In this document: positions 1 through 60,917 of the stretch, one piece after another | How positions within the stretch are numbered: position 1 is the first letter of the stretch | How the letters are laid out: every line of letters starts with the position of its first letter | Origin: Eledone cirrhosa | Taxonomy: Eukaryota | Length of the DNA: 64,000 nt | Assembly: GCA_964016885.1 (NCBI GenBank) | Contig: OZ024763.1 | Span: forward strand, 13,454,001-13,518,000 | Reading direction: 5' to 3' | Program-made: the position numbers and the translations under genes | Notes under the pieces: model-generated | Databases searched by the model: none | Told to the model about the DNA's origin: nothing | Seen by the model: the letters and a program-made list of their open reading frames with translations, nothing else

Positions 1-1502
1 ATGAGCTTGGCTGGTCACGCTTGGGGATCCATTCGGATCAATTGGAGACCGTAGCCTCTGACATGACCCGCTAGAAGGAGTACTTGAGGACTCTGCCCCC
101 AAAACCCTCTCAAGAATAAGTGGGCAAAGAATAAACCACCCACTCTAATACATATTTTTCTTTTGTATTTGAAAGGCTGGTATTTATTTTATCGATGCCT
201 TTTTGTCAAACTGCTAAGTTGTGGACAAAGAAACACACACGCATTCTTTACTGGTTTCAATCAAACTGTGGCCATGCTAGGGCATTACCTTAAAGTGATT
301 TAGTGGATTATAATAAACCCCAATATTTATATTTTTCAAAGTCTTGTACTGATTTTATCAACTTTTTGGTGAAACTGCTAAGTTAAGGGATGTCAACAAA
401 CAGTAAACACAAACACATACAGAAGAGGCTTCCACACAGTTTCTGTCTACCAAATTTCGTTCACAGGACACTAGTCAACCTGAGGCTATAGCAGAAGATT
501 CTTGCTGAAGATAGCAAGCAGTGGGACTGAACCCGAAGACTGGTTGCAAAGTAAACCTCCATAATCGATATTCCATTTACATGCTTTGCTACCCACCTCC
601 ATTGATCACATTCACACCCAGTGAACCATAAACATGTCATGTCCAAGCATTAATCAGACCATGCCATGCCAGACAGTATGTCAGCCACCACATCACTAGA
701 GTGTGTAAAAGCTAAACTCACACACACACACACATTTGGAGAGTTGGTTGCAGGTGTTGACCGCTGAAATCATGTATTGGTCCAGTCAAGTCAGATGGTC
801 TGAAGCCAATATGTGGCCCTCGCATACATAATGTACACTGTGGGAGCCATCACTAGCAGTCAAGACTTGCATTAGACATCAGTGCAGTGATTGCAGTGAA
901 TGGTCATCCTCTGGTCACGCTGTAATGGACTCACTGATCTGAGCCAGCTCGACCAATCTCGGCAAACGCCGACAAGTATACAAATATAAGTATGACCAGT
1001 TGAATGAGAAGTACTGACCAAGTCTAATATACTGTAATGACCACACACAGGTCTTAGGCGGAATCTGTGATAACTTGACCAGGAATGGAAAAGGTCTTCA
1101 ACTCATGATGGATATGTAGAGGCACTGTCCTAATACACGAGTATCTTAGAGCATTTTAAACCTGGTTGAGCCCAGGCTTCTCGAGGATCTTGACCAGATC
1201 AGAGATAAAATAACAATAGATTATACAGCAGTAAATCCTCATAGAAATGTTAACCAGGATCTGGGATGTCTTGACCACAGAGTAAATTATTTCTGACCCC
1301 ATACCACCACCACCAGCAGAAAAGAACTGTTGTTGGTGATGGTGATGATAGGAACGTAGGAAAGTTTAAGTAACTAAGATAATAAACTGCAACGACATTA
1401 ACAAGAGCACAGACGATGGTGCCAATAAGTTCAGAAATGAAGGTAAGAGCGTTCCTACTACTGCCTAGCCAGGCTAGTTGTGGACTCTTCCATGTAGCGT
1501 AC

Positions 1503-1654
1503 CTGATGCCTCGAACTGGTTCCTTATGACCCTGAAACATCTTAACATTGTTCATGTTTGATTGCCAGTACTTTATATAACCAGCATGATCTGCAGTAAC
1601 CATCCATGTGTCGCTGTGACTCCACACCATGGCACGCACTGATGTATCATGTGC
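1503..1654 (-). CDS. WDR33: WDR33 coding exon 5 ([50 protein letters not shown]); gene continues beyond the left edge
   Basis: ttctag|GCA...ATC AG|gtacgc, 152 nt, phase 2; contains the [13 protein letters not shown] hallmark. Confidence 0.95.
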
Positions 1655-1735
1655 CTAGAACACACAAAGAAAAACAAGAAAGAAGATACATGAGAAATTT
1701 TATAATTAGGAAATTAAACACACACACACGCACAC

Positions 1736-2280: not shown

Positions 2281-5200
2281 ATCATCATCATCATCGTCAT
2301 CGTTTAACGTCTATCTTCCATGCTAGCATGGGTTTAGTCGGTAATTGTCCCGCGTGAGGCAAGAGTGGTTGTCTTGCTCGCATAGGACTGTCTGGCGGGT
2401 TTTCTACAGCTGGATGCCCTTCCTAACACCAACCACATTTACAGTGTGGACTGGGAGATTTTTACCGTGTTACCTACACGGCCACATTACAGCGTGGACT
2501 GTGTGTTTTTTGTCGTGACACCTACACGATCTCATTTATTGAGGACTGGATGTTGTGGCACCAACATAACTTTATAGAGAAAGGGGTAGTGTAGATGGGG
2601 TTGGGAGTAGGGGTAGTGGGATGGAGGTGTATTTTTGGTTAGGAGGTGCCTAGTGTAGGTTTCGCTTTGTACTTAGGCAAGGCGGGTTTTCTGTATTACT
2701 ACGTAGCGCCAAAGATCTCGGTCCAGTGACATTGTCTTGGAGAGGTGTAAGTATGCAAGGTCGGAATTTATCAAATCGTCCCAGGTTTTTCTGGGTCTGC
2801 CTACTCCGTAGCTTCCATCTATTTTGATCGACTTGCACTTTTTTATACAGCTGTCGTCTTTCATGCGCATCACGTGACCATACCAACGTTGTCTTCTCTC
2901 GAGTAAACAGCATCTGATCCCTCTTATTCCTAATTTCTCAGTTCATTTATGCTTTGCCGTTCACATATATTACTATTACACATCCAACGGAGCATGCAAG
3001 CTTTGTTCCTCTCCAGTCTGCGCAGATCCTCTGCACACAATGCCCATATCTCACTGCCATGTAACATTGCTGTTCGTATGCAGGCATCATACAGTCTGCC
3101 TTTCATTTTTAGGGAGAAACCTTTAGCGGCCAATAGTGGTATAAGCTCTCTGAACTTTTTCCATCCCGTTCTGACTCTAGCTACTGTACTTTCAGAGACC
3201 CTCCCCCACTGCTGATTTTGTCACCCAGGTAACGGAAGGTGTCCACTATTTCTATAGAACCATCTGTGCAATGGAAGGAGCTAGTATCCTGTGGGCACTT
3301 GCTACCACTTATTGCACCTGGGCACCGGCCACATATAAAATCTATGTTCTTAGTTAGTTTACCTGTGATCCCACTACATCTTTTATGTACCCATACTTTG
3401 CATTTGGGACATAAAATGGAGTTTCTGCCTACTCCTTTCCTACACACTGAGCATGGCCATTGCCCAGATGGGACCGGTGCCCTATTTTCCTTCCTACATA
3501 CTAGAACTTTAGTCTTAGACAAGTTAATTTTAAGGCCTTTTGATTCTAGGCCATGCTTCCAAGTTTGGAATTTCTTCTCTAGTTCAGCCATTGATTCAGC
3601 TATGAGCGTTAGATCATCTGCGTATAGAAGTTCCCATGGGCAGCCGGTCTTGAACTCCGCTGTTATAGCCTGAGGGGCAATAATAAATCGGAGGGGGCTA
3701 AGAACAGAACCCTGATGAACACCGACTTTTACATTAAATTCTTCACTATATTCGTTGTTAATTCTAACCTTGCTGCCTGTTTCTTTATACATGGCTTGTA
3801 TAGCTCTCGCGAGCCATTCATCAACACCTAGTTTTCTAAGAGCCCACCAGATAATGGAGCGGGGGACTCTGTCAAAGGCTTTCTCCAAGTCAACAAAAGC
3901 TAAGTAAAGAGGTTTACTTTTAGCTAGGTACTTCTCGTGTAGTTGTCGTACAAGGAAAAGAGCGTCTGTGGTACTTTTACCTGACACAAACCCAAACTGC
4001 ATTTCATCTAGATCAATTCGCTCTCTGATTAGTTGTGCTATAACTTTTTCTGTGACCTTCATGACCTGGTCAATTAATTTAATACCTCTATCGTTTCCCC
4101 TATCTAGGGCATCTCCTTTACCCTTGTAGCAGTTAATGATGATGCTGCTATGCCAGTCATTTGGTATGACCCCATTCTGTATGACTTGGTTTACTATCCG
4201 GGAGACCATAGTGTGTCCCACTGATCCAGATGCTTTCAGTATTTCAGCAACTATCTCCGAAGGCCCAGCTGCTTTGGCTGTCTTCATATCTTTAATTGCC
4301 TTACTTATTATACTACCTTCAACTTGTACTGCTGGATCGATTTGGGGCAGACTATCTTTTTCCCACTTATTCAAAGCTACCTTCTTATCAGTATCAGTGA
4401 TGGCAAGTACACCATCATCATTACGGACACACTTCTCCCTGACAATATCACAGTTTTCCTTGACACATTGTCTAGCAATCCTGAACACCTCACGTTTTTG
4501 GTCCTCGCGTTGTAGAACATGCTTGAACTTTCTTTCCCCTGCTTCCCTTCTTGCAAGGTACAGTCTCCTAGCTTCCCTCCTGGCCACTCGATAGTGTTCT
4601 CTACTTCCCCCATCCCGCCATACTTTCCAAGCTTGCTTTTTGGCTTTGATTGACTCCTCCACCTTACTGTTCCACCACCATGTTACTCTCCTCCTGCCTA
4701 TAGGTCTGCTCCAGCCACAGATTTCATCTGTCACTTTCAGCAGGTTAACTTTCAGGAATTCCCAGTTCCTCTATACAGTACGTCTCTAATCGATCTTCCT
4801 TACTGTCAAAAGCATCAAGTAATAAGCTTTTAAATTTGTTACTGGCTGTGGGGTCCTTTAACTTCCATATTCTTCTTCTCAGGGTGGTCCTCCTCTGTTG
4901 TCAAGTACGTCTCGACCTGACTATGAGGTCACTAACTATGAGGCTATGTTGGGAGGTGCATTCTTTGTGGAGGGATTTAGTGTTTACAACCGACACTTTG
5001 TCACATGTGGTAAGGATATAATCTGACTGGCGTGTTCCCCTGATCTATAGGTGATCAAGTGATTGTCTCGTTTTTTGAACTTTGTGTTGCAGATAGTTAT
5101 GTTATTTGCGTCACAGGATTCCAGAATTCTGAAGCCTTCCTCATTTCTGGTACCAAACCCGTAGCCTCCATGGATTCCGTCATAGCCGTCACAATATTGT

Positions 5201-5645
5201 CCAACATGACCATTTAGGTCGCCAGCGATAATTATGTAGTCACTGTCAGTTAGTTGGGAGGTAGTGAGCATTAGCGACTCATAGAATCTGTCTTTTATAA
5301 CGCCAGGCAGTCCAGATTGGGGTGCATAAGCAGATATTATTGTCACAGTAGTTCTATTTAGGACAAGTCTTATTTTGATTATTCTGTCGTCCACTATTTA
5401 CGTCAATTACCTTATCTACCCAATTTTCTGCTAACATAATTCCTACCCCACCCAGCCCATTTTCATTTCCCACCCAGAAAAGTTTATATCATCGTTTTTT
5501 ACCCACAATGAATCTAGCAGACCCACCCCTCCACCTGGTCTCTTGGACACAACAAGCATCAACTTCCTTACGTTCAAGCATCTCTACAACTTCATTAGAG
5601 CGACCTTTTAAAGTGCCTACATTCATGGTACCAACTCTGAAGTTT
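2281..5645 (-). mobile_element. Near full-length degenerate RTE-clade LINE (APE endonuclease, RT, PHD-like Cys cluster) with (GAT)n tail, inside a WDR33 intron
   Basis: ORFs 4984-5394 (SAYAPQ, GDLNGHVG), 3181-4734 (DLEKAFD, QGSVLSP, YADD), 2930-3133 and 2673-2873 (GRPRKTW); several frameshifts. Confidence 0.93.
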
Positions 5646-7092: not shown

Positions 7093-7317
<225 letters not shown>

Positions 7318-9532: not shown

Positions 9533-9637
9533 CGTTAAAACAAATATTGGGCATCTGAACTTGTTGGTTGATGTACGGACAAATTTTGTGACAACACAGT
9601 TCATTGGATTGTGAAGCACGCTGAGTGGTGGCACTAA
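9533..9637 (-). CDS. WDR33: WDR33 coding exon 3 ([35 protein letters not shown])
   Basis: cccaacag|TTA...ACG|gtaagt, 105 nt; matches the conserved [17 protein letters not shown] motif. Confidence 0.93.
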
Positions 9638-10312
9638 CTGTTGGGAGAGAAAGAGGCACAGATTAGTAATAGCATTGACTGGGGGGAGACAGAGGCATAG
9701 ATTAGTGGTGGTACTGACTGGGGGCGAGAGAAAGAGGCACATAGATTAGTAGCGGCACTGACTGGGGGGAGACAGAGGCACAGTTTAGTGGTGGCATTGA
9801 CTGGGGGGGAGACAGAGGCACAGTTTAGTGGTGGCATTGACTGGGGGGGAGACAGAGGCACAGATTAGGGGTGGTACTGACTGGGGGGAGACAGAGGCAC
9901 AGATTAGTAGCGGTACTGACTGGGGGGAGACAGAGGCACAGATTAGGGGTGGCACTGACTGGGGGGGAGAGAAAGAGGCACATAGATTAGTAGTGGCACT
10001 GACTGGGGGAAGACAGAGGCACAGATTAGGGGTGGTACTGACTGGGGGGGAGAGAAAGAGGCACATAGATTAGTAGCGGCACTGACTGGGGGAAGACAGA
10101 GGCACAGATTAGGGGTGGTACTGACTGGGAGCAGACAGAGGCACAGTTTAGTGGTGGCACTGCCTGGGGGGAGAGAAAGAGGCACATAGATTAGTAGCGG
10201 CACTGACTGGGGGAAGACAGAGGCACAGATTAGGGGTGGTACTGACTGGGAGCAGACAGAGGCACAGTTTAGTGGTGGCACTGACTGGGGGGAGAGAAAG
10301 AGGCACATAAAT
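9624..10312. repeat. 39-45 bp minisatellite, 17 units, built from the WDR33 exon 3 acceptor
   Basis: Minus-strand unit ctaatctgtgcctctgtctccccccag|tcagtgccacca; the last unit is the real acceptor. Confidence 0.93.
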
Positions 10313-10675
10313 CAGTGGGATTTGAACTCAGATCATAAAGGGACGTAACTATGCTGGAAAGCATGGTGTCCGACCCTCTACCAATACTACTTAATAATTG
10401 TTTCTACTTTTGGCACAAGGCCAGTAATTACACCCAGTGCATTACTGGTACTTTATTTTATCGACCCCGTAAGGATGAAAGGCAAAGTTAACCTCAGCGG
10501 GATTTGAACTCAGAAAGTAAAGGACCATAATGGGAGTTAGTTATATTACTAAATCCTTCAAAATTCTTGATTATTTGATTTCATTAGAAATATGGGAAAG
10601 AAATAGATAAATAAGCAAGTTAAGAAGGACCCCAATAAAACCCAATCATTCTATTTATGGTAATGAAATACTTAC

Positions 10676-10744
10676 CCCTTCTTGGAAAAGGCAGTCTGGT
10701 TGAATGGCACGGAAATCACGATGGTCCCTTTGATAAAGTCGATT
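10676..10744 (-). CDS. WDR33: WDR33 coding exon 2 (NRLYQRDHRDFRAIQPDCLFQEG)
   Basis: Not in the ORF track; read manually. tttttgtag|AAT...GGG|gtaagt, 69 nt, in frame; resembles vertebrate NRIWQRDQRDMRAIQPD. Confidence 0.92.
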
Positions 10745-13307: not shown

Positions 13308-13634
13308 CTCGAGATATTTCACAACAGCCGAATTATAATCGACAGTTTTCCTGTGGACAGCCTTCCTCATACGTTTGCCGTCAAACATAATACCCTGGCT
13401 GGCCATCATTTTCTGTTGCATGTATGTACGTTGTTGTAATTGTTGTTGTTGCTGCTGCTGTTGCTGTTGTTGTTGCTGTGATCCCTGCGGAGGCATCATG
13501 CCGCCGGGGCCTTGAGACATGGCCATCGGAGGTGGCATATTGAATCTAGGAGGCATGTTAGGTGGAGGGTGGTTCAAGTTGGGTAGCTGTGGAGGAGGCC
13601 CCGTCATTGGGGGCAAAGACACTGGCATCATCAT
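13308..13634 (-). CDS. WDR33: WDR33 coding exon 1 (Pro/Met/Gln-rich N-terminus plus [18 protein letters not shown] motif)
   Basis: Translation ends ...[27 protein letters not shown], matching the WDR33/Pfs2 N-terminal motif. Acceptor ttttccag with exon starting at 13655, ATG at 13634, donor GAG|gtattc at 13308/13307. 109 codons, phase 0. Confidence 0.93.
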
Positions 13635-45401: not shown

Positions 45402-47460
45402 AATTATTGTGTACAGTGCTCAGGTGCACTACAACTCGTCAAAGGTGCATGTATAGTACATAGAATAATATACAAATGTCAGGGAAGTGAATAGTGTATG
45501 AGTCATGATATACATGTGTGTCTGTGTATGGAGGGGGAGCATTAGGTGTAGTGTTGGCGAATCTCGGGAAGCATGGAGGTTTTAAAGGATGCAGTGTCTC
45601 GACAGCTAACAACTGATGCAGGTAGTTTGTTCCATGGAGGTTTTAAAGGATGCAGTGTCTCGACAGCTAACAACTGATGCAGGTAGTTTGTTCCATGGAG
45701 GTTTTAAAGGATGCAGTGTCTCGACAGCTAACAACTGACGCAGGTAGTTTGTTCCATGGAGGTTTTAAAGGATGCAGTGTCTCGACAGCTAACAACTGAC
45801 GCAGGTAGTTTGTTCCATGGAGGTTTTAAAGGATGCAGTGTCTCGACAGCTAACAACTGACGCAGGTAGTTTGTTCCATGGAGGTTTTAAAGGATGCAGT
45901 GTCTCGACAGCTAACAACTGATGCAGGTAGTTTGTTCCATGGAGGTTTTAAAGGATGCAGTGTCTCGACAGCTAACAACTGGTGCAGGTAGTTTGTTCCA
46001 TGGAGGTTTTAAAGGATGCAGTGTCTCGACAGCTAACAACTGATGCAGGTAGTTTGTTCCATGGAGGTTTTAAAGGATGTAGTGTCTCGACAGCTAACAA
46101 CTGACGCAGGGAGTTTGTTCCATGGAGGTTTTAAAGGATGCAGTGTTTCGACAGCTAACAACTGACGCAGGGAGTTTGTTCCATGGAGGTTTTAAAGGAT
46201 GCAGTGTTTCGACAGCTAACAACTGACGCAGGGAGTTTGTTCCATGGAGGTTTTAAAGGATGCAGTGTCTCGACAGCTAACAACTGATGCAGGTAGTTTG
46301 TTCCATGGAGGTTTTAAAGGATGCAGTGTCTCGACAGCTAACAACTGACGCAGGGAGTTTGTTCCATGGAGGTTTTAAAGGATGCAGTGTCTCGACAGCT
46401 AACAACTGACGCAGGGAGTTTGTTCCATGGAGGTTTTAAAGGATGCAGTGTTTCGACAGCTAACAACTGACGCAGGGAGTTTGTTCCATGGAGGTTTTAA
46501 AGGATGCAGTGTCTCGACAGCTAACAACTGACGCAGGGAGTTTGTTCCATGGAGGTTTTAAAGGATGTAGTGTCTCGACAGCTAACAACTGACGCAGGGA
46601 GTTTGTTCCATGGAGGTTTTAAAGGATGCAGTGTTTCGACAGCTAACAACTGACGCAGGGAGTTTGTTCCATGGAGGTTTTAAAGGATGTAGTGTCTCGA
46701 CAGCTAACAACTGACGCAGGGAGTTTGTTCCATGGAGGTTTTAAAGGATGCAGTGTTTCGACAGCTAACAACTGACGCAGGGAGTTTGTTCCATGGAGGT
46801 TTTAAAGGATGCAGTGTCTCGACAGCTAACAACTGATGCAGGGAGTTTGTTCCATGGAGGTTTTAAAGGATGCAGTGTCTTGACAGCTAACAACCGATGC
46901 AGATAGTTTGTTCCATGGAGGTTTTAAAGGATGCAGTGTCTCGACAGCTAACAACCGATGCAGATAGTTTGTTCCATGGAGGTTTTAAAGGATGCAGTGT
47001 CTCGACAGCTAACAACTGATGCAGGTAGTTTGTTCCATGGGGGTTTTAAAGGATGCAGCGTCTCGACAGCTAACAACTGATGCAGGTAGTTTGTTCCATG
47101 CTTCAGCATCTCTGAGCGTGAAAAAATGTTTCCGTAAGTCATGGGAGCTGTGCTGTTTTCTGACTTTGTGGGCATGCCCACGTGTGTTAGACACATGGAA
47201 ATCAAAAAGGTACTCAGGGTTGTTGTTAGCAAGATGGTTAATAATTTTGTGGGCGTTTACCAAGTCAGCTGCCAGGCGTCGGAGCTTCAATGTATCCATG
47301 CCCAGAGAAGCAAGGCGTTCAGAGTGTGGTAGATGCCTGATGGAGGGTATTCGCTTGGTTGCACATCTCTGAACAGTTTCCAGGCGGTCAATGTTCTCAG
47401 CAAGATAGGGCTTCCAGACTGGTGCTGCAAATTCTAAGTGTGGCCGCACCATAGCCATGA
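45367..47460 (-). mobile_element. CR1/L2-type LINE 3' fragment with (ATT)n tail and internal 61-bp array
   Basis: VRPHLEFAAPVWKPY...LETVQRCATKRI; same family as 59210-60765. Confidence 0.85.
45572..47100. repeat. 61-bp tandem repeat, about 25 copies, derived from the LINE 3' end
   Basis: Unit ggaggttttaaaggatgcagtgtctcgacagctaacaactgatgcaggtagtttgttccat; present once in the sister copy at 59341-59405. Confidence 0.95.
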
Positions 47461-58645: not shown

Positions 58646-59209
58646 TCAGTATTAATCAGTATCAATAACTATGCTGGAAAGCATGGAGTAGAGGGTCGGA
58701 CGTCATGCTTTCCAGCATAGTTACGTCCCTTTACGATCTGAGTTCAAATCCCGCCGAGGTTGACTTTGCCTTTCATCCTTACGGGGTTGATAAAATAAAG
58801 TACCAGTAATGCACTGGTTAATTGCTGGCCTTGTGCCTAAAGTAGAGACAAGTATTAATCAGTATCAATGAGAATATCATTTCATTGTACGTCCACTTTT
58901 TCCCTGCTTGCAAGGGTGGGACGGGAACTGGTTTTGGCTTGATTTCTACAGCTGGATGCCCTTCCTAACACCAACCTCATTTACAGTGAGTGCTGGGTGC
59001 TTTTTTGCCGTGGCACCTCCACGACCACTTTGCAGTGGAATGATAGGGACCCCAGTCCCTATCATCTCATTTCTACAGCTGAGTAAACTGGAGCAATGTG
59101 AAATAAAGTGTCTTGCTCAAGGAAACAACACATCACCCGGTCTGAGAATTGAACTCACAACCTTTCGATTGCAAGGCCAATGCTCTAACCATTAAGCCAT
59201 GTGCCTCAA

Positions 59210-60765
59210 AAGTGTATGTATAGTACATAGGGTAATGTACAAACGTCAGGAAAATGAACAGTGCACGAGTCATGATATACACATGTGTGCGTGTGTATGG
59301 AAGGGGGACATCAGGTGTAGTTTTGGCGAATTTCGGGAAGCATGAGGGTTTTAAAGGATGCAGTGTCTCAACAGCTAACAACTGATGCAGGTAGTTTGTT
59401 CCATGCTTCAGCAACTCTGAGCGTGAAAAAATGTTTCCGAAAGTCATGGGAGCTGTGCTGTTTTCTGACTTTGTAGGCATCTCCACGTGTGTTAGACACA
59501 TGGAGATCAAAAAGGTACTCAGGGTTATTGTTAGCAAGATGGTTAATAATTTTGTGGGTATTTACCAAGTCCATTGCCAAACATCGGAGCTTCAATGAAT
59601 CCATGCCCAGAGAAGCAAGGCATTCAGAGTATGGTAGGTGTCTGATGGAGGGTATGCGCTTGGTTGTACGTCACTGAACAGTTTCGAGGAGGTCAATGTT
59701 CTGAACAAGATAGGGGTTCCAGACTGATGATGCGAATTCCAAGTGTGGTCGTACCATAGCTGTATACAACTTTAGATAAATGGCTGGAGAGCGGCTAACA
59801 AAGGTCTTGCTGAGTGATGCCAAGACACCCTCGGCCTTCTTGACAATTTTAGAGATGTGCTTTATCCAACGCAAATCGCTGCTGACAGTAATGCCCAGGT
59901 CACGTTCACAAGAGGACTTCTTGATATCAGTGTTGTGGAAGGCGTATGTGGACACTGGATTTTTCCTCCCAAAATGCATGGTGGTACACTTCTCCACAGC
60001 CAGCTTCAGTTGCCAGTCTGTGGTCCATTGCTGCATTGTGTCCAGGTCTGATTGTAGGAAAGAGTTATAGATTTCAGGATCTGTCCTTTTGATTTTTGAC
60101 AGGTGACGTGCGGTCGCCCTTTTTGAACAGGGGAATGACACAGGCAATTTTCCATTGCTCCGGAGTAGCACCATTGTTGAGACTATTGAAAGAAGAAAGA
60201 AAGCTGGTGCAAAAGAAAGTACCCGCCACGTTTGAGAAGCAGGTATGTAACACCATCAACACCAGGGAAGGCATAGTTGCGTTTATTCTTAAGGTGATGT
60301 TGCAGCATTGCAGGTGTAAATTCCATAGTTGTTATGGCATTTGATGTTAGAGATGGTGGAGATGGTACATTCTGGTTTTCAACAGTAAAAATGCTTGCAT
60401 AGCACTCAGCAATGAGTTCTGCGCATTCTTTGGGATCGTCAGTCATCTGGCTTGTGTGGGGATTGCGAAGAGGACCAACTGGAGAGTGAGGTCTCTGCTT
60501 TGAATGAACATATTTCCAGAACACCTTACTGTCAGGGCTGGTTGCTGTGCACTGTTCAAATTCAAGCACTGCCTTTTTTGTCACTTGCTTGAGATGGTTG
60601 GAAGATTTATTCTGCTTTTTTCTGTTGGCATCTGATTTATGCAGTTTATATTCCTGTTCAGCATTCCAACGTTCTTTCCTGGCAAGTCGGACCGCTGAAG
60701 TTTCCCAAATTGCACTTTTGGGGTGCTTTTTTTTCTGCTTACGTGGCACTGATGCTGCACACGCT
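59210..60765 (-). mobile_element. CR1/L2-type LINE ORF2 fragment with internal deletion of the RT core
   Basis: FWKYV, PGVDG, WKIACVIPLFKKGD, RDLGI, VRPHLEFASSVWNP, RKHFF..RV..WNKLP. The sequence jumps from KKGDRTSPV to the post-FADD region near 60100. Confidence 0.88.
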
Positions 60766-60917
60766 ATCCATATATATATAACCCTCATCGTTTAACGTCC
60801 ATTTTCCATGCTACCATGGGTCAGATAGGTTGATCCATTGGAGGTAAACTGGGTCAGGTGAATGTGTCTTGCCCATATAGAACTGTTTCTGGCTAGGTTT
60901 CTAGCCAGAAATAGTTC

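What the first reader, a model, noticed from the sequence alone, without database searches (positions are those of the whole stretch)
1250..1654. WDR33 intron read-through encodes a hydrophobic tail at the junction that yields human membrane-bound short WDR33 isoforms
Seen: the exon 5 donor is non-consensus (AG|GTACGC). The frame stays open 83 codons into the intron (GIR-YATWK...DPG*, stop at 1250) and includes a hydrophobic run [27 protein letters not shown] plus a second apolar patch [11 protein letters not shown]. The predicted product is about 333 aa with only about 2 WD40 repeats. Established (recalled): human WDR33 makes short intronic-polyadenylation isoforms that diverge at the equivalent ...EAIREAR| junction, gain transmembrane segments and were linked to STING regulation. 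Inference: a membrane-anchored truncated WDR33 may exist in a mollusc, meaning ancient conservation or convergence of this isoform switch. An 83-codon open frame can also arise by chance.
Basis: partly seen in the sequence, partly recalled or inferred. Interest (0 to 1): 0.8.

Follow-up and report, generated by a model that had tools for sequence, protein, structure and literature searches.

The report
Cephalopod WDR33 short membrane-tailed isoform
This cephalopod's WDR33 gene, which encodes an mRNA 3'-end factor, has an open, hydrophobic reading frame running into one intron that other cephalopods share, so it likely makes the short membrane form known from humans, flies and a sea anemone, but in a lineage reported to lack STING, the partner that form regulates in humans.

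Summary
Coding exon 5 of WDR33 reads 83 codons into a 16.7-kb intron at the junction where human V2 diverges, giving 333 aa with two WD repeats and one hydrophobic segment. About 1.4% of donor-like sites nearby do this by chance. Cuttlefish-type relatives share the tail (20 of the first 21 residues), two of them on contigs with upstream exons already joined. RNA-like contigs of two organisms enter the intron. In exon-selected animal loci, 17 of 18 lineages avoid a stop-forming donor, and indels mostly keep the frame, though amino acids are weakly constrained. This is not new in kind: Liu and Manley already reported V2 in fly and Nematostella, and this scan found it before in cartilaginous fish. 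The twist is that two published surveys list no STING in Octopus bimaculoides, which goes against the proposed V2-STING co-evolution. My own STING searches failed their control. The second apolar patch is not conserved. The proposed poly(A) signal at 183-188 is passed over; a hexamer cluster 343-487 nt beyond the window edge is a better candidate. Protein, membrane insertion and function are untested. Feedback attenuation with a degradable tail is the main rival.

The parts
13308..13634 (-). WDR33 coding exon 1 (from the first ATG)
   Evidence: tblastn with P0002; boundaries
10676..10744 (-). WDR33 coding exon 2
9533..9637 (-). WDR33 coding exon 3
7204..7299 (-). WDR33 coding exon 4 (first WD repeat region)
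1503..1654 (-). WDR33 coding exon 5 (equivalent of human exon 6; second WD repeat)
1497..1505 (-). Phase-2 donor CAG|GTACGC; forms no stop on read-through. When spliced it joins exon 6 about 16.7 kb downstream (G000:C24 near 13,438,757, outside the window)
1250..1502 (-). Intron-encoded tail: 83 codons plus TAA
1381..1502 (-). Conserved part of the intron (about 41 codons): alignable at 80% or more to an RNA-like contig of organism B and, as protein, to P0121, P0122, P0001 and P0369
1367..1447 (-). Hydrophobic segment, predicted single transmembrane helix (KD19 2.22; helical in a low-confidence model)
1295..1327 (-). Second apolar patch: lineage-specific, not transmembrane-like
183..188 (-).
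1..1249 (-). Predicted 3' UTR of the short isoform. It continues past the window edge to five AATAAA hexamers 343, 347, 393, 457 and 487 nt beyond it (G000:C24 about 13,453,513-13,453,657), the candidate poly(A) region

Best explanation
This is likely the cephalopod counterpart of WDR33 V2: the frame runs unbroken from exon 5 into the intron, and transcripts likely end by intronic polyadenylation about 1.6-1.75 kb past the stop, giving a 333-aa protein with two WD repeats and a predicted single membrane helix. Shown: the frame, the junction, the conserved tail, and contigs entering the intron. Inferred: splicing of the 16.7-kb intron competes with a hexamer cluster 1.85-2.0 kb past the donor. 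A fraction of transcripts is cleaved there, so the stop lies in the last exon and would escape junction-dependent decay. The protein cannot close the seven-blade propeller and would leave the CPSF complex. It would insert into the ER with its WD blades in the cytosol and lend them to a WD partner, as proposed for human V2 and WIPI2 in autophagy. Because octopus is reported to have no STING, that partner is likely not STING. What is selected is an open frame plus a hydrophobic stretch, with an added nucleotide-level constraint on the first 60 or so intron bases.
For: (1) Junction and phase match mammalian V2 (326-aa named isoforms; donor in L087). (2) P0121, P0122 and P0001 share 20 of the first 21 tail residues, apart from one in-frame extra codon here, and have KD19 2.0-2.5. 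P0001 and P0369 carry joined upstream exons plus the tail, and P0369 is in the cluster of a named Sepia pharaonis WDR33. (3) X22 (same organism code as the DNA holders, RNA-like) has a 719-nt contig from the exon end into the intron with 0 differences, and cover to about the first hexamers. X15 (another organism) has both an exon contig that stops at the donor and a 1,057-nt contig entering the intron. (4) Exon-selected loci: a stop-forming donor in 1 of 18 lineages against 14 of 29 other WDR33 donors in the same loci (p=0.003). The in-frame tail is longer than the other frames in 12 of 16 lineages (p=0.007). In the largest lineage, 14 of 19 indels in the first 150 nt are multiples of three, against 44 of 150 further on (p=4e-4). 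T is enriched at codon position 2 in 10 of 12 sets (p=0.003). (5) Published V2 homologs in fly and Nematostella.
Against: No protein, localisation or 3'-end data. The runs are not on record as RNA, are contigs only, and carry 30 exon letters, one short of the tool's 31-letter rule for bridging; nascent RNA could give similar cover. X10 shows only the spliced path at the donor. Tail pN/pS is 0.63-0.84 against 0-0.05 in the exon, and 4 of the 5 visible tail differences to X15 are non-synonymous. In this window T is not enriched at codon position 2, and the +1 frame is as hydrophobic (2.26 against 2.22). Five of 16 lineages have tails of 13 aa or fewer. Hydrophobic tails are common in intron read-through generally: 5 of 8 tails at a later WDR33 junction also reach KD 1.8, as Kesner et al. 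describe. The ER-adaptor role is taken over from human work.
Confidence: 0.58

Rival explanations
1. Feedback attenuation. The conserved thing is the RNA switch (a weaker donor, a conserved intron start and an intronic poly(A) site) that lowers full-length WDR33 when 3'-end processing is high. The hydrophobic tail only marks the truncated protein for BAG6-type degradation.
For: CstF-77 is regulated through a conserved weak donor and an intronic poly(A) site (abstract). Hydrophobic C-tails from noncoding translation are captured by BAG6 (abstract). Tail pN/pS is near 1, and tail pS is below exon pS in three lineages. The first 21 codons are nearly invariant while the membrane segment varies. 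Five of 16 lineages have almost no tail. Two earlier reports on cartilaginous fish lean this way (not tested here).
Against: Attenuation alone needs no open frame, yet stop-forming donors are avoided and indels keep the frame. A degron would explain this only if the tail itself is selected. No donor-masking structure was found and there is no Rfam match. Human V2 is a localised protein with a knockout phenotype.
Confidence: 0.24
2. A STING regulator as in humans: this cephalopod has a diverged or unannotated STING, and the short isoform restrains its oligomerisation.
For: Human V2 binds and regulates STING, and the authors propose co-evolution, with loss of both in C. elegans. Oyster has STING. 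My searches of G000 cannot exclude STING: the Mab-21 control search also found nothing.
Against: O. bimaculoides is listed with 0 cGLR and 0 STING (PMC9980059 supplement). It appears only in the CD-NTase sheet of PMC10732462, where oyster is in the STING sheet. Both surveys may rest on the same gene set.
Confidence: 0.1
3. A chance open frame in a T-rich intron; the contig cover is unspliced pre-mRNA.
For: 0.3-5.7% of sites give such a frame by chance. The runs are not on record as RNA. The window's own codon-position test is negative.
Against: The junction was specified in advance by the human case. The tail is shared with cuttlefish-type relatives, while intron sequence beyond 1381 is unalignable at 80% even to organism B. 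Cross-lineage frame tests are positive.
Confidence: 0.08

Closest known systems
Human WDR33v2 (rat NET14); Liu and Manley 2024, PMC11019558 and PMC11445923
   Same: Same gene, junction and intron phase; read-through into the intron after the second WD repeat; similar size (333 against 326 aa); hydrophobic intron-encoded tail; candidate poly(A) signals downstream.
   Different: Tail sequence unrelated and shorter (83 against about 118 aa). Intron is 16.7 kb, so full retention is implausible. Octopus is reported to lack STING. No localisation or binding data here.
Drosophila and Nematostella V2 homologs (PMC11019558, section 15 and Fig. S7)
   Same: Invertebrate V2-type forms with two WD repeats and a predicted C-terminal transmembrane domain.
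   Different: Those lineages have STING. No mollusc was examined (term absent from the supplement), and no test of frame selection appears in the passages read.
CstF-77 (CSTF3) intron 3 intronic poly(A) feedback (PMC3708835); PCF11 (PMC6458999, search listing only)
   Same: A 3'-end factor gene with a large intron, a sub-consensus donor and a proximal intronic poly(A) region.
   Different: The CstF-77 short isoforms have no apparent protein product, whereas here the frame is kept open across lineages.
BAG6-triaged hydrophobic tails of noncoding translation (bioRxiv 10.1101/2022.07.20.500724)
   Same: A T-rich intron giving a hydrophobic C-terminus.
   Different: That is a generic, unconserved by-product; this tail is conserved across coleoid-type sequences.

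Membership tests
WDR33 V2-type isoform | Diverges from full-length WDR33 at the donor after the second WD repeat (human intron 6) | tested here: met
WDR33 V2-type isoform | [quoted passage not shown] | tested here: met
   the next WD exon lies 16.7 kb downstream
WDR33 V2-type isoform | C-terminal transmembrane domain predicted | tested here: inconclusive
   KD19 2.22 (mammalian V2-type P0237: 1.86); helix with pLDDT about 74 in a model of mean 57.6; marginal (+1.2 to +1.3 kcal/mol) on a recalled biological hydrophobicity scale; no TMHMM-type tool available
WDR33 V2-type isoform | Transcripts retain the 5' part of the intron | tested here: inconclusive
   Contigs of X22 and X15 enter the intron from 30 nt inside the exon, but the runs are not on record as RNA. 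Relatives P0001 and P0369 have joined upstream exons plus the tail.
WDR33 V2-type isoform | mRNA ends at an intronic or exonic poly(A) site | tested here: inconclusive
   Hexamer cluster; X22 and X10 cover stops near it while the DNA-size run continues, but X15 has a contig further on; a weak hint only
WDR33 V2-type isoform | ER localisation and no binding to CPSF subunits | not testable with these tools
   needs an experiment
WDR33 V2-type isoform | Binds and regulates STING | tested here: inconclusive
   Own-genome searches were uninformative (control failed). Published tables give no STING in O. bimaculoides.
Autoregulatory intronic poly(A) of 3'-end factors (CstF-77 type) | Large intron with a sub-consensus donor and a proximal poly(A) signal | tested here: met
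Autoregulatory intronic poly(A) of 3'-end factors (CstF-77 type) | Site use responds to the factor's own level | not testable with these tools
   needs knockdown and 3'-end sequencing
Autoregulatory intronic poly(A) of 3'-end factors (CstF-77 type) | Short isoform has no apparent protein product | tested here: inconclusive
   The frame is kept, but amino-acid constraint is weak

The most novel reading that the evidence does not exclude
The membrane-tailed short WDR33 is a widespread animal isoform, kept by selection on donor sequence and reading frame rather than on tail sequence. It persists in coleoid cephalopods that have lost cGLR-STING signalling. Its ancestral job is therefore STING-independent (an ER or autophagy adaptor, or a protein-level brake on CPSF), and octopus is a natural STING-null system in which to find it.
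Probability: 0.4. Interest if true: 0.72.

Novelty: new member of a known kind. Interest (0 to 1): 0.5.

Why it matters
The V2 isoform is known only as a STING regulator, and its evolutionary link to STING rests on a small hand-checked table. A conserved V2-type frame in cephalopods, where published surveys find no STING, would break that link and point to an older function. The cross-lineage signal (stop-avoiding donor, frame-keeping indels, position-2 T bias) also offers a way to tell selected intron-encoded membrane tails from the generic hydrophobic by-products of intron read-through.

Tried and rejected
RNA holders: none is listed on record; this is not evidence either way. Only 4 of 24 runs were laid, so organisms C, D and E remain unexamined. 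Parts without contig cover (X22 at L010 1-150 and 301-375) prove nothing alone. Donor-masking hairpin: fold z = +1.2, with 181 of 200 shuffles folding as well; donor pairing 0.62 against 0.62 in shuffles; rejected. Structured RNA: the only Rfam match is a chance one (E 0.38, 22 of 107 bits). STING in G000: PF15009 gave no candidate, and the PF23417 top hit is a low-complexity repeat with stops. The Mab-21 control also found nothing, so these searches say nothing. A tail-only protein search found nothing and missed the known positive P0001; it is uninformative. The near-length search with P0001 as query could not be made. The second apolar patch and the AATAAA at 183-188 were rejected as key parts. 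Protein-database counts of long tails were down-weighted: length limits and 50% clustering favour long, divergent tails, and a control junction looked similar. The first exon-joining attempt had off-by-one boundaries and was corrected. Papers on cephalopod STING: nothing useful. A sequence look-up in earlier findings returned nothing.

Full report
Setting. The window is G000:C24:13454001-13518000 in a 3.0-Gb genome, and the stretch is single-copy there. WDR33 lies on the minus strand. Five coding exons are in the window and at least eight more lie downstream. The closest full-length relative, P0002, clusters with a named Sepia pharaonis protein, so the host is a cephalopod. That it is an octopod is my inference; no named Octopus record was returned.

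Observation. Exon 1654..1503 matches human WDR33 residues 159-206. It ends at the phase-2 donor CAG|GTACGC. Splicing joins exon 6 about 16.7 kb away and restores the canonical sequence. Without splicing the frame runs 83 codons to TAA at 1252..1250, and the joined product is 333 aa. The best 19-residue KD mean is 2.22; hydropathy values are recalled scales. An AlphaFold model from a 4-row alignment is poor overall (mean pLDDT 57.6) but has a helix over the segment at pLDDT about 74. Chance: 3.9% of 487 AG|GT sites on this strand read through as far, and 1.4% are also as hydrophobic; the range over other site sets is 0.3-5.7%. In 400 shuffles, 2.0% were open, 1.8% as hydrophobic and none both. 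The frame is unusual but would not convince alone.

Conservation in cephalopods. P0121, P0122 and P0001 each match 20 of the first 21 tail residues once one extra in-frame codon here is set aside. They match 14, 7 and 6 of the next 20, mostly with hydrophobic swaps, and have tails of 64-66 aa with KD19 2.0-2.5. P0121 also ends in a motif like the window's last eight residues. The tryptophan-rich patch is found only here. P0001 and P0369 encode joined upstream exons followed by the tail, which indicates processed transcripts that keep this intron start.

Sequencing runs. None of 24 listed runs is on record as RNA; four were laid on window -520..1715. X22 has the same organism code as the large DNA-size runs, but holds 88 million letters and covers the exon (depth 16-23) with almost nothing in the upstream intron (0.5), so it looks like RNA. 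Its 719-nt contig starts 30 nt inside the exon and runs to window 814 with no differences. Further contigs reach window 2, crossing the AATAAA at 183-188. Cover ends near the first of five AATAAA hexamers 343-487 nt beyond the window edge. X15 (organism B) has an exon contig that stops at the donor and a 1,057-nt contig entering the intron, alignable to window 1381 with 10 differences and 3 gap letters. X10 (organism A) shows only the spliced path at the donor. Limits: 30 letters is one short of the tool's bridging rule, depth cannot rank isoforms, nascent RNA can cover a 5' intron end, and X15 has a contig beyond the first hexamers. A denser A-rich hexamer cluster lies 6.5-6.9 kb downstream. 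Of the differences visible for X15 (93 table rows were not shown), 4 of 4 in the exon are synonymous and 4 of 5 in the tail are not, one of those probably a gap artefact.

Across animals. Protein searches show many short forms at this junction. Of 34 spliced, truncated rows there I dropped 3 (two canonical starts, one joined to a late exon). Of the remaining 31, 24 have tails of 35 aa or more and 14 reach KD 1.8. This set is biased, since 5 of 8 tails of 25 aa or more at a later junction do too. I therefore used loci found by exon patterns: 164 confirmed, best 80 kept (ranking may slightly favour read-through), 74 parsed, 63 with the intron, 18 lineages. One lineage has a stop-forming donor, against 14 of 29 other WDR33 donors in the same loci (counted by hand; p=0.003). 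In 16 scorable lineages the in-frame tail is longer than the other two frames in 12 (p=0.007); 11 have 37 aa or more and 5 have 13 or fewer. In the largest lineage (20 distinct sequences), 14 of 19 gap events in the first 150 nt are multiples of three, against 44 of 150 further on (p=4e-4; events are not fully independent). pN/pS is 0.63-0.84 in the tails of the three lineages with 3 or more sequences and 0-0.05 in their exons. T at codon position 2 exceeds positions 1 and 3 in 10 of 12 sets, and the in-frame hydrophobicity exceeds the other frames in 8 of 12, but the window itself fails both tests. Selection therefore seems to keep the frame and a hydrophobic character, not a sequence, and not in every lineage.

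Mechanism. The most likely reading is competition between splicing of a long intron and a proximal poly(A) region, as described for human intron 6. It yields a two-blade WD protein that is likely anchored in the ER. The partner is open. Human V2 acts on STING and WIPI2, and the authors argue that V2 co-evolved with STING and NF-kB. O. bimaculoides is listed with 0 cGLR and 0 STING and is missing from a second survey's STING sheet, where oyster is present; the two surveys may share one gene set. My own searches are uninformative. The main rival is feedback attenuation of the CstF-77 type with a BAG6-degraded tail. Near-invariance of the first 21 codons fits an overlapping RNA element, although no structure or Rfam family was found.

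Literature seen. PMC11019558: part 1 of 10, passages, sections 15 and 16, supplement passages; the tick marks of Fig. S7B are a picture and could not be read. PMC11445923: passages. PMC3708835 and bioRxiv 2022.07.20.500724: abstracts. PMC10732462: passages and supplement rows. PMC9980059: supplement rows. PMC11359984: passages. PMC6458999: listing only. Searches for WDR33 with cephalopod and with mollusc plus isoform returned 0 papers in this open-access library; two searches returned no study of an invertebrate V2 beyond Liu and Manley. Earlier scan reports describe the same isoform in cartilaginous fish.

Verdict. A real, conserved V2-type frame and a new member of a known kind. Its interest lies in its apparent survival without STING and in the frame-selection signal, both directly testable. 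Interest 0.5.

Noticed in passing
window 2650-5560, minus strand: A broken LINE-type retroelement (endonuclease and reverse-transcriptase frames, the longest 529 aa) inside WDR33 intron 4.
   Followed up: no
window about 45,550-47,250: Tandem array of about 183-bp units that resemble the 3' end of a retroelement; a related single copy lies near 59,100-60,800.
   Followed up: no
window 9,640-10,330: Tandem repeat directly upstream of exon 3 whose unit resembles the exon's first bases; possible decoy acceptors.
   Followed up: no
window 13,307 (exon 1 donor): Second sub-consensus donor (GAG|GTATTC), with a short 19-residue, partly apolar read-through.
   Followed up: partly
P0377 against P0369 and P0378; P0217 against P0186: Some records read Trp where near-identical tails stop, extending the tail. 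This would fit A-to-G change of a stop codon (editing or polymorphism).
   Followed up: no
P0001, P0004, P0012, P0026, P0045, P0122, P0174, P0179, P0181: Otherwise unrelated tails of 55-84 aa end in Ile/Val-Thr-stop, hinting at a shared terminal motif or DNA element about 200 nt into the intron.
   Followed up: no
L030, first 30 intron bases; tails of P0045, P0062, P0171, P0174: A CTCF-like motif (recalled consensus) may lie just after the donor; the strict pattern did not match.
   Followed up: partly
L026 lineage (8 loci): The tail is only 9 aa, the donor is strongly base-paired (0.98 against 0.56 in 25 shuffles), and longer apolar frames lie in +1 and +2. This may be a different way of weakening the donor.
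   Followed up: partly
11 of 74 parsed loci (for example L050, L064, L069): No intron at this junction, so a V2-type form cannot arise this way in those lineages.
   Followed up: no
L002 94-1371, 4115-4577, 5417-5759: Tandem arrays (86 bp x15, 95 bp x4.8, 31 bp x11) deeper in the same intron.
   Followed up: no
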